Of a stretch of DNA of 64,000 nt, positions 5,317-44,700 are shown piece by piece. The notes beneath the pieces were generated by a model. The model ran no database searches. It was not told the origin of the DNA and saw only the letters and a program-made list of their open reading frames with translations. Within the stretch, counting starts at the first letter, position 1; every line of letters begins with the position of its first letter. The DNA is from Octopus sinensis (Eukaryota). The DNA is taken from NCBI RefSeq assembly GCF_006345805.1, contig NC_042998.1, forward strand, positions 97,960,001 through 98,024,000, read 5' to 3'. The position numbers and the translations under genes are program-made.

Positions 5317-5404
5317 CTGTTACGATTGGTTGATCGTTCTGACGTCATCAGTCATTGATGCAGACAACACTTGTATAAATGCACTACCATTAGCACGCAC
5401 TACA
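5317..5404 (+). promoter_or_regulatory. Candidate Pol II promoter, copy B (CCAAT, perfect CRE, TATA, Inr)
   Basis: ATTGG 5325-5329, TGACGTCA 5340-5347, TATAAAT 5374-5380, and an Inr-like cAtt at A5404, 30 nt after the TATA start. Confidence 0.65.
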
Positions 5405-5425
5405 TTACAGAATATAATTGTCGAC
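5404..5425 (+). other. Candidate non-coding exon 1 of the 44035 prepropeptide gene
   Basis: Followed by consensus donor GTAAGT at 5426-5431. Splicing to the AG at 44033-44034 gives gtcGACATGG, a strong Kozak context with no upstream ATG. Confidence 0.5.
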
Positions 5426-5847
5426 GTAAGTACCGTATATTATTTTCGATATAGTTTTAAGTTATTATGTATGTCTCTCTCTCTCTCGCTCTCTCTCTCT
5501 CTCTCTCTCTCTCTCTCTCTCTCTCTCTCTCTCGTGCGCGCTTTCTCTCTTTCTTGTTCTTTTTATATCGCAACACCGTTTTTAATGTTACAAAGGTAAA
5601 TTTCTTACATAAACCACTGTGAAGTATTTTAAAGTAATAATATTGTGCGTGTGTGTGTGTGTGTGTGTGTGTGTGTGTGTGCGTGCGTGCGTGCGTGCGT
5701 GCGTGCGTATGTGTACGTATGTATGGATATATTAATGTATGTATGCATGTGCATGTGCTTGCCTATGCGTGAGTATGCGCGTTTATATGTATGTACGTGT
5801 GTGAGAGAGAGAGCGTGAATGTGCGCGCGCGTTCAAGTAGGCGTAGA

Positions 5848-6135
5848 GAAGGTGCATAGCGTAGCCGTTAGAGAGTTTGGATTGCGTTGATAAGGATGTG
5901 GGTTCGATTTCAGGGCCAGGCATCAGTTTGTGTCCTTAAGCAAATTACTTTTATTTAGCATGACTCCAATCAATTCAAAGGTAAACGAGAACTAGCTCTG
6001 TGCAGGTGCAACCTTCTCATCCTCAAGTTGTCACATCTTTGATATTCCTCTGGGCCCAGCACCAAAGACTTTAGAAGGTGTCATTATATGCTCGCGATTA
6101 CACAGGCACCTAAAACAATTAGCGAAAGTATCGCA
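5848..6135 (+). mobile_element. tRNA-headed SINE family C
   Basis: tagcgtagccg A-box, gggttcgattt B-box, gtgtccttaagcaa body, and 3' ggcacctaaaacaattagcgaaag shared with 55830-56100. Confidence 0.65.
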
Positions 6136-6369
6136 TATGCTATCAAGTCACTGGCTTTTTACGTGGGTTTATTTACACACACACACACATCACACACACA
6201 CATACACACAAACACATCACACACACACACACACACAACACACACACACACACACACACACACACACACACACACAATATATATATATATATATATATAC
6301 ACACACACACACATGCATGCCCGTTTGTATTCCAAGAAAACATTTTTTATTAATTCTATCTATTGCAAT

Positions 6370-6600
6370 GAAGCGAGCTGGCAGAACCGTTAGCACTCCG
6401 GACAAAATGCTCAGCGCTATTTCGTCCGTCCTTCTGCCCTTGCGTTCTTAGTTCGAATTCCGCTGTGGTCGATTTTGCATCTCATCCTTTCGGGGCCGAT
6501 GAAATGCGTACCAGCTGAGCAGTGGGGTTGATGTAATCGACAAGCCCCCTTCTCCCAAAATATCAGGCCTTGGACCTATAGTGGAAAGAAATTATTGTTA
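6370..6600 (+). mobile_element. SINE family A
   Basis: gcgagctggcagaaccgttagcac...catcctttcggggccgat...aggccttggacctatagtggaaaga. Confidence 0.85.
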
Positions 6601-7134
6601 TTCCTGGCAACAACAACAGAAATATCATCCATGCACATCAACACAAACAACACACTAATACTTAACATACAAACGCAGGTGTGCACACCCTCACAATTTC
6701 TCTCTCTCTCTCTTTCTCCTTTTTTTAAAATAACATACACACACGCACACATAGATACATACATACATACATACATACATACATACATACTACATACATA
6801 CATACATACATACATACATACATACCGAAGTGTGTGTGTGTGTGTAAATCAATCAATAATAAGCAGAAACCAGGTGTGGTATTCGATACTTTATAGGACG
6901 TACGCGTTTCAAATGCCGAAATAATTCTATTATGTAAACATTGTGGCATTTGAAACGGGGTATGTTCTACAAAGCACTGAATACCACGCACGTTTGCTAC
7001 TTATTATTACTATTTCTATAATTTAGCTCGTATTCCGCACATTCGCCTGCCTCAAGATTGATGTCCAGTGTAGTCCTAAAATGGTTACTGGAATGGAGAG
7101 TGGAAACCACTACTGAACCCGATTATCTTTGGCT

Positions 7135-41600: not shown

Positions 41601-42745
41601 TTGCTTCTTTTAAAAAAAGTGGGCAAAGATTTTAATGCAGGTGAAATTGGAAATTATAAAGTACCTTTCTAGAGGGATGACTGGTGAAAATGCAAGAGCA
41701 TTAGGTGAGATACCTTGCATTGTATGTCCCGGTTGTTTACGTTCTGAGTACAAATTCTGCTGTGGCCTTCTTGAGTGGAAAGCTTAATCATTTGCCCTGT
41801 TTAATCCCACTAATTAGTACCTAGTTCCCTTTAGTGAAGTTCACTCTGTTACAAACAATCAGGTTAGGTCTCCGGTTTAAGGATACCTTTCTCCTGTCCT
41901 CCCACTAATCTCAAAATTCAAGAAAAGTTTACATGTGTTGCTATTCTTCCTGACTAAATGGTAAAAAAAAAAATACCACCTGCAGTCGCTGACCATAATA
42001 ATGGTAAATCCTATAACCCTTATGGATCCTGGAGATACTGAGTAATTTATTAGTAAGGTTTACTGTTAGGTAACGAAATATTTGTCATTTCAGTTCTATT
42101 CTTACTTAGTAGCCATAGCCTTAGATAAATATAGTAACAGGATAAATTACTAGGCTTTAAAAAGTACTGGGGTCGATTCTTTCGACTAAAATTCTTCAAG
42201 GTGGTACCCAGCATGGTTACAGTCTAATGACTGAAACAAGCTAAAGATATATATATATATATAACAATTTTTTGCGTAATAAGATAAAAAAACCAGGGCT
42301 GTATATATATTAGAGCATTTATAGATAGAAGGTCTTACAGCTGTTTCTAGGATATTAATTAATAATATCCCTTCATCGGAGACGGTGTGAGAGGAAAATT
42401 AAGTCATAGTTAGTTTCGATGTGATACAAAATAGAGAGCGAGGTGGATGAAAGAAAATAGATGTAAGATATATTTGGATATTGAATTTGTAAATCCGTTT
42501 TATTGGCATAATGGTATATATGCAATATTCCAATATTCTTTGAGTAAAATCCAAAAGTCCAACAGAGTTTAATATGAGCATTACCTGACACCTTTGGGTC
42601 TCAATGACACCATTATCTCTTATATATATATATATATATATGTGTGTGTGTGTGTGTGTGTGTGTGTGTGTGTGTGTATGTGTGTGTGTGTGTGTGTGTG
42701 TGTGTGTGTGTGTGTGTGGTGTGTGTGTGTGTGTGTATATACACT

Positions 42746-42968
42746 CACGAGGGCGGCGAGCTGAAAAGTTCATGGTTTTGTCTTAAAGAAAATATAGGAG
42801 GATCAATTAATTATGATTTTATTGAACATATTTCCCTCTGAGATTCACACACTTATTGCTGTGGACCTTCAGTTTGTCTAAGCCCTGTAAAAGAGCTCGG
42901 AAGGTTGAGCATCCAACCAGGTATTTTGCGATACCTTTAAAGCCATAAACTTTTCAGTATCCCCTCAT
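42746..42968. mobile_element. Mariner-derived MITE
   Basis: Imperfect TIRs cgagggcggcgagctgaaaagttcatggttt / aaagccataaacttttcagtatcccctca. Confidence 0.7.
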
Positions 42969-43376
42969 AAATACATATGTATGTATGTATGCATGCATGC
43001 ATGCATGTATGTATGTATGTAAGTATGTATGTATGTATATCGACATTTACAAAATTATCAACACGTTTCCTAAATATTTACCAGAATGTTGGGTTCCGAA
43101 TCTGAAGTGTATTTAAGAAAGGAGCCGGTCATTCTATAAATATCGATTTCATGAAATAAGAACTCTTTCACTCAACAATATTGAATACATTCTATTCCGT
43201 CTGTAGGCGCATGGGATGTAGAACAGTTTTTTTTTTACTTCATTTTTCTGAGAAGACAAGCTGTGAAAATTAAGGAAAATCATTTCTGCAGGAATGTGAG
43301 ACTGCGTTACAGCGTTGGTTTTCCAGAAGCCTACCTATTCCTCTATTACAGTTGCCGTTTTAGATTGAAATATTGA

Positions 43377-43819
43377 TTTCAAATTTTGGCACAAAGTCAA
43401 CAATTTCGGTGGCTGGGTAAGTCGATTACATTAACCCCACTGCTTAACTGGTATTTATTTTATCGACTCCGAAAGGATGAAAGACAAAGTCGGCTGCGAC
43501 GGAATTTGAACTCAGAACGTAAAGACGAACGAAATGCCACGAAGCATTTCGCCAGGCATGCTAACGTTTCTGCTAGCTCACCAGTTTTTTTCTTTTTTGA
43601 AATGCTGAGTTCAAATTTTTGGCTCAAAGCCAGTAATTTCGGGGGAGGGATAAGTCGATAACATCAACCCCAGAATTCAAATTTTATCAACTCCGAAAGG
43701 ATGAAAGGTAAAGTTAACATCGGCGGAATTTGAACACAGAACGTAAAGACGGTCGAAATGTCGCTAATCATTTTGCCCGACGTGCTAACGATTCCACCAG
43801 TTCGCCACCATTTTTTAAA
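43377..43819 (-). mobile_element. Pair of SINE family A copies inside one 13-bp TSD
   Basis: attgaaatattga at 43364-43376 and 43820-43832. Confidence 0.85.
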
Positions 43820-44004
43820 ATTGAAATATTGAAAACAGAAAATAATTTTTGAAATTGCATACCATTAATTATTTTTCAATACTCTCGAGAATGACAAACA
43901 AAGAACTTGGTTCCTCGCCCTCATTAAATGTCTAGCTTTGTACATGAATAATTATTCAATTTTTTAACAACAGCCACATAAAATATTGTCTTTACATTCT
44001 GTAC

Positions 44005-44034
44005 ATCTTGCTTTTATTCTTTTTTTTTTTTTAG
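44005..44034 (+). other. Polypyrimidine tract and splice acceptor abutting the start codon
   Basis: cttttattcttttttttttttttag|ATG. Confidence 0.85.
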
Positions 44035-44700
44035 ATGGCTGCTAAATATAGTCTTGTTGGTGGTACATTAATCAATATCCTTATTCTGAGCTTTACAATT
44101 CAGCTTGTATTCGTCGGAGTTTCGGAAAGCAGACAAGGCTGCCCAGCCAATTCAGTGAAAGAAGTCATATGTTCGTCGTGTTTCAAGCTGCCAGAAACTT
44201 TGCAACCACTTGTATCAAAGTGTTGCATCCAACCTGAAGCACTCATGCTTTGTGAAAAATGTCTGAGAGACAACGATCATTGTCAAGGGGAAGTGATGGA
44301 GCTCTTGAAACTCTACATACGAAGTGGTAATGTTGTACTTAATCGAAACAACGGCTTAGCTGTCTCACCAGAGAGTGCGTTTGCCAATCGTTACCGATAC
44401 CTGTTAATGAAGAGAGACTACGAGCCTACAACATCAACAATGTCGGCAGATTACGAAAGGTCTTTACTACCGGAATTTCTAAGACAGTATAAAGCATTCC
44501 AGTTAGAAAGGCGATTAGACAAGTTGGTCTCTAAAAGAGAAGCTGAACAAATGGTTGCGGCTCCAGCTGTTGATGAAAGGAAACGATCGGGAAGAGTATT
44601 CACGAGCAGATTTCGAAATCGTTACAGTGGTTATTTGTCTCCAACAGTAACAAGACTGGAACCATCTGGAAAAATTCATTTGTCAGATCTTGAAAAATAG
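44035..44700 (+). CDS. Secreted prepropeptide (neuropeptide/hormone precursor) with an N-terminal 8-Cys domain; possibly lophotrochozoan opioid-like family
   Basis: The longest ORF in the window (221 aa) and non-repetitive. Hydrophobic signal peptide with S-E-S|R cleavage after residue 32. C36-x9-C-x2-C-x13-CC-x8-C-x2-C-x6-C83. Basic sites KR126-127, RR159-160, KR167-168, RKR182-184. Confidence 0.85.
   Translation: MAAKYSLVGGTLINILILSFTIQLVFVGVSESRQGCPANSVKEVICSSCFKLPETLQPLVSKCCIQPEALMLCEKCLRDNDHCQGEVMELLKLYIRSGNVVLNRNNGLAVSPESAFANRYRYLLMKRDYEPTTSTMSADYERSLLPEFLRQYKAFQLERRLDKLVSKREAEQMVAAPAVDERKRSGRVFTSRFRNRYSGYLSPTVTRLEPSGKIHLSDLEK

What the first reader, a model, noticed from the sequence alone, without database searches (positions are those of the whole stretch)
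5317..44040. Predicted gene model: CRE/TATA promoter and 22-nt exon joined across a ~38.6-kb intron to the prepropeptide ATG
Seen: the CDS start directly follows a splice acceptor, so an upstream exon is implied. At 5325-5431 there is CCAAT, a perfect CRE (TGACGTCA), TATAAAT, an Inr-like A exactly 30 nt downstream, and GTAAGT. Joining 5425 to 44035 gives GAC-ATG-G, a strong Kozak context. I found no other host coding sequence in between. Established: proximal CRE+TATA promoters typify activity-regulated neuropeptide genes such as proenkephalin and somatostatin. The linkage itself is inference.
Basis: partly seen in the sequence, partly recalled or inferred. Interest (0 to 1): 0.75.

Follow-up and report, generated by a model that had tools for sequence, protein, structure and literature searches.

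The report
Octopus enkephalin-like gene's duplicated CRE promoter
An octopus gene for a 'proenkephalin-like' neuropeptide precursor likely splices a short untranslated exon across 38.6 kb to its coding exon, behind a predicted cAMP-responsive promoter module that occurs twice; the layout is a familiar kind, and the exon is likely longer than the 22 bases proposed.

Summary
All motifs are present, and the cluster is rare by chance (0 and 2 of 300 simulations). The 5425-to-44035 link has outside support. A public O. vulgaris protein model (CAI9718020.1) reads window 5354-5425 directly into the ATG at 44035. The protein is the octopus member of the lophotrochozoan 'proenkephalin/opioid-like' precursors. 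Its O. bimaculoides ortholog is listed in a 2019 supplement, and the 8-cysteine spacing matches limpet and bivalve members. It fails the vertebrate opioid tests. The 22-nt exon is not supported as the only form. Contigs from 4 of 4 probable RNA runs carry 31-73 letters ahead of the ATG (letters not shown), and the public model's exon starts at 5352. Best reading: a CRE/TATA promoter with mixed start sites drives a non-coding first exon. Start site and cAMP induction are untested. It is a known kind of gene and promoter, of modest interest.

The parts
3713..3788 (+). Upstream copy (A) of the promoter module: same ATTGG box, CRE altered to a half site, perfect AP-1-type TGAGTCA at 3744, TATA-like TATAAAG at 3762, CRE-TATA spacer 8 nt shorter; followed by an AC microsatellite and no matching exon or donor
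   Evidence: blastn 73.8% over 84 columns, E 3e-10 in the window; 62 of 76 aligned bases identical; core 0 of 2000 shuffles, flanks at shuffle level; AC array 3783-3845
5317..5400 (+). Proximal copy (B) of the promoter module
5325..5329 (-). CCAAT box, on the minus strand; identical in copy A
5340..5347 (.). Palindromic CRE, the only one in the window; followed at 5348-5354 by an AP-1-like site that also matches an insect-type Inr pattern (A at 5350)
   Evidence: binding not tested; Inr pattern recalled
5374..5380 (+). TATA box; predicted start 5402-5404; lies inside the exon in the longer form
   Evidence: for the longer form
5352..5425 (+). Upstream exon, long form (74 nt in the public model, AG at 5350-5351); holds two out-of-frame upstream ORFs (ATG 5358, 6 codons; ATG 5379, 4 codons). 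The short form 5402/5404-5425 is predicted and not observed
   Evidence: residues 27-50 of P0004 map exactly to 5354-5425; uORFs; contig X3 carries 73 letters ahead of the ATG
5426..44034 (+). Intron, 38,609 nt, GT...AG; branch-like TTAAC at 43964; acceptor tract 95% pyrimidine
   Evidence: join present in P0004; no Pfam hit in 76 ORFs
44035..44700 (+). Single coding exon, 221 aa: hydrophobic N-terminus (predicted signal peptide), 8-Cys domain (C36-C83), four basic sites (126, 159, 167, 182), one degenerate copy of the family peptide after RKR at 182-184
   Evidence: covered 44042-44800 by one contig in each of 4 runs
45171..45634 (+). Three candidate poly(A) signals (45171, 45574, 45629); use not tested

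Best explanation
This is the octopus member of the lophotrochozoan 'proenkephalin-like' neuropeptide precursors, and its mRNA likely starts in a CCAAT-CRE-TATA promoter at 5317-5400, from more than one start site, with a non-coding first exon likely spliced from 5425 across 38.6 kb to the ATG at 44035. Shown: the motifs, the ORF, the same join in a public gene model, the family's cysteine spacing, and a second copy of the module 1.6 kb upstream. Inferred: NF-Y and CREB/AP-1-type factors bind the module. TATA-directed starts at about 5402-5404 give a 22-24-nt leader without upstream ATGs, while a sizeable, tissue-dependent share of starts at or above about 5353 gives a 50-75-nt leader with two short uORFs that would be translated less well. 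The protein would enter the secretory pathway from the ATG at 44035 and be cut at basic sites into a disulfide-bonded N-terminal domain, a short acidic peptide and a basic C-terminal peptide. The 50-aa N-terminal extension in the public model is probably a prediction artefact of a stop-free 5' UTR. Copy A is most likely a second, upstream enhancer-like module.
For: Join: residues 27-50 of CAI9718020.1 (P0004) match 5354-5425 exactly and run straight into the ORF. That model is not independent of prediction, but the annotation I take it to come from combined RNA-derived junctions with ab initio models (PMC10700109 passages), and pure prediction has little reason to reach 38.6 kb for a 74-nt exon. 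Contigs: in 4 of 4 runs from 4 studies one contig covers 44042-44800, is flagged 'only partly on it', and carries 31-73 further letters ahead of the ATG; the tool dropped 4 loose ends at the T-run. None of the four exceeds 74 letters, so a further upstream exon is not needed. A toy simulation excludes a 22-nt-only leader and fits no single share of long leader to all four runs, which points to a mixture. Motif cluster rare. ATG 44035 is the start in three other octopod proteins (P0002, P0003, P0005). Family: the O. bimaculoides ortholog sits in the proenkephalin block of PMC6425005 supplement 3, with Cys spacing C-9-C-2-C-13-CC-8-C-2-C-6-C identical to Lottia, Pinctada and Dreissena entries (counted by eye).
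Against: The contigs' upstream letters were not shown, so their origin at 5353-5425 is inferred; for X1, X10 and X7 they could be intron letters cut by the repeat mask, or adapter. The runs are only guessed to be RNA, and I laid no DNA or silent-stretch control. The tool calls such dropped loose ends mostly false. No start site at 5402-5404 was observed; every observed length is longer. The public model treats 5352-5425 as an internal exon, and its first 25 residues are not encoded in the window (best 8 of 25 identical). The pre-named motifs are no better conserved between the two module copies than the rest (17 of 20 against 45 of 56, Fisher p 0.75). No binding, chromatin or induction data. 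The simulation ignores 5' loss and assembly forks.
Confidence: 0.58

Rival explanations
1. The public model is right in structure: 5352-5425 is an internal exon, the main promoter and first exon lie upstream of the window, and the CRE/TATA cassette is an intragenic enhancer or minor promoter (with or without a 50-aa N-terminal extension).
For: P0004 has 25 further residues not encoded in the window; AG at 5350-5351 keeps the frame; X3's 73 letters stop one base from 5352.
Against: No contig carries more than 73 letters; the 5352 acceptor is weaker (65% pyrimidine against 95%); the extension would push the hydrophobic N-terminus to residue 55-80, and three other octopod proteins start at the shorter ATG; no shorter protein with the extension was found (1 candidate, 0 hits).
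Confidence: 0.13
2. One reading: one start at 5404 (or 5402) and a 22-24-nt exon; the extra letters on the contigs are adapter or unspliced intron.
For: Canonical TATA spacing; the deepest run (X7) has the shortest extension; the letters were not seen.
Against: It needs non-exon letters in 4 of 4 studies; X3's 73 letters and the public model both point to about 5352-5353; simulation gives 0 of 4000 reaching the observed lengths in every run.
Confidence: 0.12
3. Transcription starts mainly near 5350 at the Inr-like site behind the CRE, the TATA box is simply transcribed, and the twice-present module is a relic of a mobile element.
For: Inr-like match with A at 5350; X3 reaches 5353, and X1 and X10 would begin inside the TATA box; the duplicated unit has sharp edges and begins with TGT as many LTRs do (recalled); motifs not preferentially conserved.
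Against: A long-leader-only model fits X7 and X10 poorly in the simulation; the CRE would overlap the core promoter; only two copies in 850 window tiles; the duplicated unit coincides with the motif cluster.
Confidence: 0.12
4. The join is a prediction artefact shared by the reader and the public model; the real first exon is elsewhere.
For: I saw no read or contig letters across the join; ab initio models fed the annotation; 12 GTAAGT sites lie upstream.
Against: Two independent routes chose the same donor among many; X3's length fits the model's exon to one base.
Confidence: 0.05

Closest known systems
Lophotrochozoan 'proenkephalin' / opioid-like precursors (Platynereis, Lottia, Pinctada, Crassostrea, Patinopecten, Dreissena; PMC6425005 supplement 3, PMC4200219, PMC5996578, PMC3890597)
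   Same: Hydrophobic N-terminus, 8-Cys domain with the same spacing as molluscan members, basic cleavage sites, and a motif after RKR resembling the family's repeated peptide start; the O. bimaculoides ortholog is already listed in that block.
   Different: Limpet and bivalve members repeat a Tyr/Phe-Gly-initial peptide several times; the octopus has one copy that starts with Ser. The Idiosepius entry also lacks the repeats. No promoter or exon structure for the family was seen in the passages read.
Public gene model CAI9718020.1 (O. vulgaris; P0004)
   Same: Same donor and acceptor, same 221-aa core.
   Different: Calls the upstream exon coding and internal (5352-5425) and adds 50 residues; named only 'hypothetical predicted protein'.
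Vertebrate opioid precursors PENK, PDYN, PNOC, POMC (PMC2865548)
   Same: N-terminal cysteine domain followed by basic sites; from recall, PENK has a proximal cAMP-responsive enhancer, a TATA box and a non-coding first exon.
   Different: No Y/FGGF core, no intron in the coding region, 8 cysteines with a CC pair instead of 6 spaced singly, no Pfam opioid hit. A review finds no invertebrate homologue of opioid peptides or receptors (PMC5818035).
Proximal CRE+TATA promoters of cAMP-inducible genes (somatostatin, PENK; recalled)
   Same: Palindromic CRE 34 nt ahead of a TATA box, with a CCAAT box just upstream.
   Different: Here the module occurs twice, and the contig lengths suggest transcripts that cross the TATA box; induction untested.

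Membership tests
Lophotrochozoan proenkephalin/opioid-like precursors | N-terminal signal peptide | tested here: inconclusive
   Hydropathy peaks at 2.3 over residues 17-27; no signal-peptide predictor was available.
Lophotrochozoan proenkephalin/opioid-like precursors | Cys domain C-9-C-2-C-13-CC-8-C-2-C-6-C of molluscan members | tested here: met
   Cys at 36, 46, 49, 63, 64, 73, 76, 83; same spacing counted by eye in Lottia, Pinctada and Dreissena entries; invariant in 4 of 4 octopod proteins.
Lophotrochozoan proenkephalin/opioid-like precursors | Repeated peptides beginning Tyr/Phe-Gly after dibasic sites | tested here: not met
   One degenerate, Ser-initial copy after RKR 182-184. So: a divergent relative by its Cys domain and by the 2019 listing, without the typical peptide array.
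Lophotrochozoan proenkephalin/opioid-like precursors | Processing to mature peptides in neurons | not testable with these tools
   Needs peptidomics and in situ data; run tissues are not on record.
Vertebrate opioid precursors (PENK/PDYN/PNOC/POMC) | Y/FGGF core motif | tested here: not met
   Absent from P0001-P0005; feature from PMC2865548.
Vertebrate opioid precursors (PENK/PDYN/PNOC/POMC) | [quoted passage not shown] | tested here: not met
   CDS is one exon; contigs show no joint in 44042-44800.
Vertebrate opioid precursors (PENK/PDYN/PNOC/POMC) | Conserved N-terminal cysteine pattern | tested here: not met
   Different number and spacing; no Pfam opioid match.
CRE+TATA cAMP-inducible promoter | Full CRE shortly upstream of a TATA box | tested here: met
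   5340 and 5374.
CRE+TATA cAMP-inducible promoter | Start site about 30 nt after the TATA box | tested here: inconclusive
   Contigs carry 31-73 letters ahead of the ATG, more than the 22-24 predicted; letters unseen; contigs cannot show a start.
CRE+TATA cAMP-inducible promoter | CREB binding and cAMP induction | not testable with these tools
   Needs ChIP/CUT&Tag, reporter or forskolin experiment.
LTR or other mobile-element fragment (the duplicated module) | Many dispersed copies, terminal dinucleotides and target-site duplication | tested here: inconclusive
   Two copies in the window; no genome held, so copy number is unknown; target-site duplications not tested.

The most novel reading that the evidence does not exclude
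Octopods run their 'proenkephalin-like' gene from a tandemly duplicated CCAAT-CRE/AP-1-TATA module that makes it activity-inducible like vertebrate PENK. Stimulation shifts the start to the TATA-directed site, dropping two uORFs, and the product is a cephalopod-remodelled signal (disulfide domain plus one Ser-initial peptide) that has lost the ancestral peptide repeats.
Probability: 0.15. Interest if true: 0.65.

Novelty: new member of a known kind. Interest (0 to 1): 0.36.

Why it matters
It pins the likely promoter of a cephalopod neuropeptide gene 38.6 kb from its coding exon and flags a probable error (a 50-aa extension) in a public model. Recent papers report no opioid precursors in octopus (PMC12919962), yet this unnamed gene is the one listed with the disputed protostome 'proenkephalin' family. 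If the CRE module is inducible, an 85-bp element offers a compact activity reporter for octopus neurons and a test of whether this family shares regulatory logic with vertebrate PENK. The layout itself (non-coding first exon, long first intron, CRE+TATA) is familiar; the intron is about 16 times the annotation's median of 2,467 bp.

Tried and rejected
No RNA holder listed: no run is on record as RNA, 14 holders are guessed RNA. The single read-laying run could not span both exons (20-kb limit), and the loose ends fell in the masked T-run, so the junction letters were not seen. No whole genome held: module copy number, the model's first exon and conservation in other octopods remain open. Homolog searches found only octopods: 2 of 221 candidates, 1 protein among 1.84 billion representatives, 0 of 1 shorter candidates. 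ESM Atlas hits 0.82 and 0.88, lead level only, fungal hypotheticals. PDB sequence search: one hit at E 0.066, a LIM protein, taken as chance. AlphaFold2 model unusable (mean pLDDT 38.6), so no fold search was run. Rfam: 0 matches in the window. Selection on the motifs: not supported. Flank homology between module copies: none at 30-150 nt. Paper searches for accession numbers and for five peptide motifs found 0 main texts; three supplements of PMC9712504 had no hit for the locus ids, one file unreadable; octopus+CREB+promoter gave 10 papers, none on this by title; two searches for the PENK enhancer gave listings I did not open, so that comparison is recalled. Earlier findings: nothing in 4 look-ups. 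Considered and not tested: an extra mini-exon, trans-splicing, and splicing from copy A (candidate donors at 3952, 4162, 4930, 4952, 5145, 5290).
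Full report
Observation. The distance is 38,609 nt. CRE plus TATA arose in 6 of 100 shuffles; with a donor in 2 of 300 simulations, with CCAAT in 0 of 300. These patterns were set after seeing the site. Of 87 ORFs scanned against Pfam, 76 lie in the intron and none hit at E<=0.01. Nine lie upstream, with one weak hit below cut-off, and two controls downstream of the gene hit reverse transcriptase and transposase. Low-complexity ORFs and those under 65 aa were left out.

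The organism and protein. The 221-aa ORF is 97% identical to an O. bimaculoides protein, 77% to an Argonauta protein, and identical to residues 51-271 of O. vulgaris CAI9718020.1. Sequence searches reach no further than octopods. All eight cysteines and basic sites at four places are kept, and residues 170-206 are invariant in the four proteins aligned. The O. bimaculoides ortholog is printed in supplement 3 of PMC6425005, inside a block that runs from vertebrate PENK and PNOC through Platynereis 'proenkephalin' to molluscan precursors (I saw part 99 whole and passages of parts 95-96; the block has no visible header, so the label is read from its position and from the main-text list). Counted by eye, its cysteine spacing equals that of the Lottia, Pinctada and Dreissena entries. 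Those repeat a Tyr/Phe-Gly-initial peptide several times; the octopus has one Ser-initial copy, and the Idiosepius entry lacks the repeats. The family is called opioid-like in PMC4200219 and PMC5996578 (passages) and listed in PMC3890597 (passages). Its homology to vertebrate opioids is disputed: PMC5818035 finds no invertebrate homologue (passages), and PMC12919962 and 10.64898/2026.02.18.706622 report no canonical opioid system in octopus (passages). The octopus protein fails the vertebrate tests of PMC2865548 (passages): no Y/FGGF core, no coding intron, a different cysteine pattern.

The join. The 50 extra residues of CAI9718020.1 are the key. To keep frame its exon starts at 5352 behind an AG, and its first 25 residues are not in the window. 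I infer, without a call showing it, that this record comes from the annotation in PMC10700109, which merged RNA-derived junctions, long reads and ab initio models (passages). The frame through 5294-5425 has no stop, which is how a 5' UTR exon gets called coding. Three other octopod proteins start at the shorter ATG, so I take the extension as a probable artefact.

The reads. One laying was allowed, on 43815-44800, with four runs guessed to be RNA from four studies. Each gave one contig over 44042-44800, flagged as only partly fitting. The tool masked 44006-44041 and dropped four loose ends there, so the upstream letters were not shown. From the record offsets the contigs carry 49 (X1), 48 (X10), 73 (X3) and 31-32 (X7) letters ahead of the ATG. 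All exceed 22. If they come from the upstream exon they begin at 5377, 5378, 5353 and about 5394. X3 cannot easily be intron, since 44 unmasked letters would have been laid; the other three could be. None exceeds the model's 74-nt exon. In a toy simulation a 22-nt-only leader never reached these lengths, a long-only leader fitted X3 but rarely left X7 or X10 so short, and no single mixture fitted all four. It ignores 5' loss, adapters and assembly forks. The fair reading is that transcripts begin in or near this block at more than one place; contigs cannot show a start. The longer leader holds two short out-of-frame ORFs that the short leader lacks.

The duplicate. The module 5317-5400 recurs at 3713-3788 in the same orientation: 62 of 76 aligned bases identical, with an 8-nt deletion between CRE and TATA. 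The CCAAT box is intact, the CRE is reduced to a half site next to a perfect AP-1-type site, and a microsatellite stands where the exon would be. The flanks are at shuffle level, and apart from tiles overlapping these two sites nothing among 850 window tiles scores near it. The unit coincides with the motif cluster, which suggests selection, but the named motifs are not better kept than the rest. A mobile-element origin cannot be excluded without the genome.

Mechanism. Most likely (0.58) a CCAAT-CRE/AP-1-TATA promoter with mixed starts feeds a non-coding exon spliced to a single coding exon for a secreted precursor, which is cut at basic sites. Motifs, ORF, family spacing, the model's join and the duplicate are shown. 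Start sites, factor binding, induction, processing and the role of copy A are inferred. Rivals: internal exon with a promoter outside the window (0.13), the strict 22-nt model (0.12), an upstream TATA-less start with a relic module (0.12), a false join (0.05). Taken alone, I put the join at about 0.9.

Novelty. The gene is catalogued, the join is in a public model, and CRE+TATA promoters on neuropeptide genes are a known kind (recalled; two searches were listings only). My searches found no main text naming this gene or its promoter, but most subscription papers and supplements are not searched. New here are the promoter assignment, the duplicate module, the likely annotation error and the reduced peptide array. 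Interest 0.36.

Noticed in passing
   Followed up: yes
window 5358-5393: Two short out-of-frame upstream ORFs (6 and 4 codons) present only in the longer leader; the first stops within the TATA box.
   Followed up: partly
window 5290: A second GTAAGT donor-like site 27 nt upstream of the proximal module; it could serve transcripts from copy A.
   Followed up: no
window 44469: A-to-G difference in the contigs of both organism-B runs (X7, X10), absent from both organism-A runs; more likely a species or allele difference than editing, no matched DNA run.
   Followed up: no
window 46855-47526 (+): Reverse-transcriptase fragment (Pfam RVT_1, E 6e-15) about 2 kb downstream of the stop codon.
   Followed up: no
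window 53212-53885 (+): Broken mariner-type transposase; Pfam Transposase_1 at 53553, E 3e-20.
   Followed up: no
window 24001-24369, 25535-26023, 28979-29329: Intron ORFs that look by eye like LINE and mariner remnants (recalled resemblance); no Pfam hit.
   Followed up: partly
window 215-565, 2701-3112, 43400-43810: Copies of a roughly 180-nt SINE-like repeat (for the first four; the last seen by eye).
   Followed up: no
window 5200-5450: CpG observed/expected 1.4 around the proximal module against 0.81 for 1-44034 and 0.62 around copy A; small sample.
   Followed up: no
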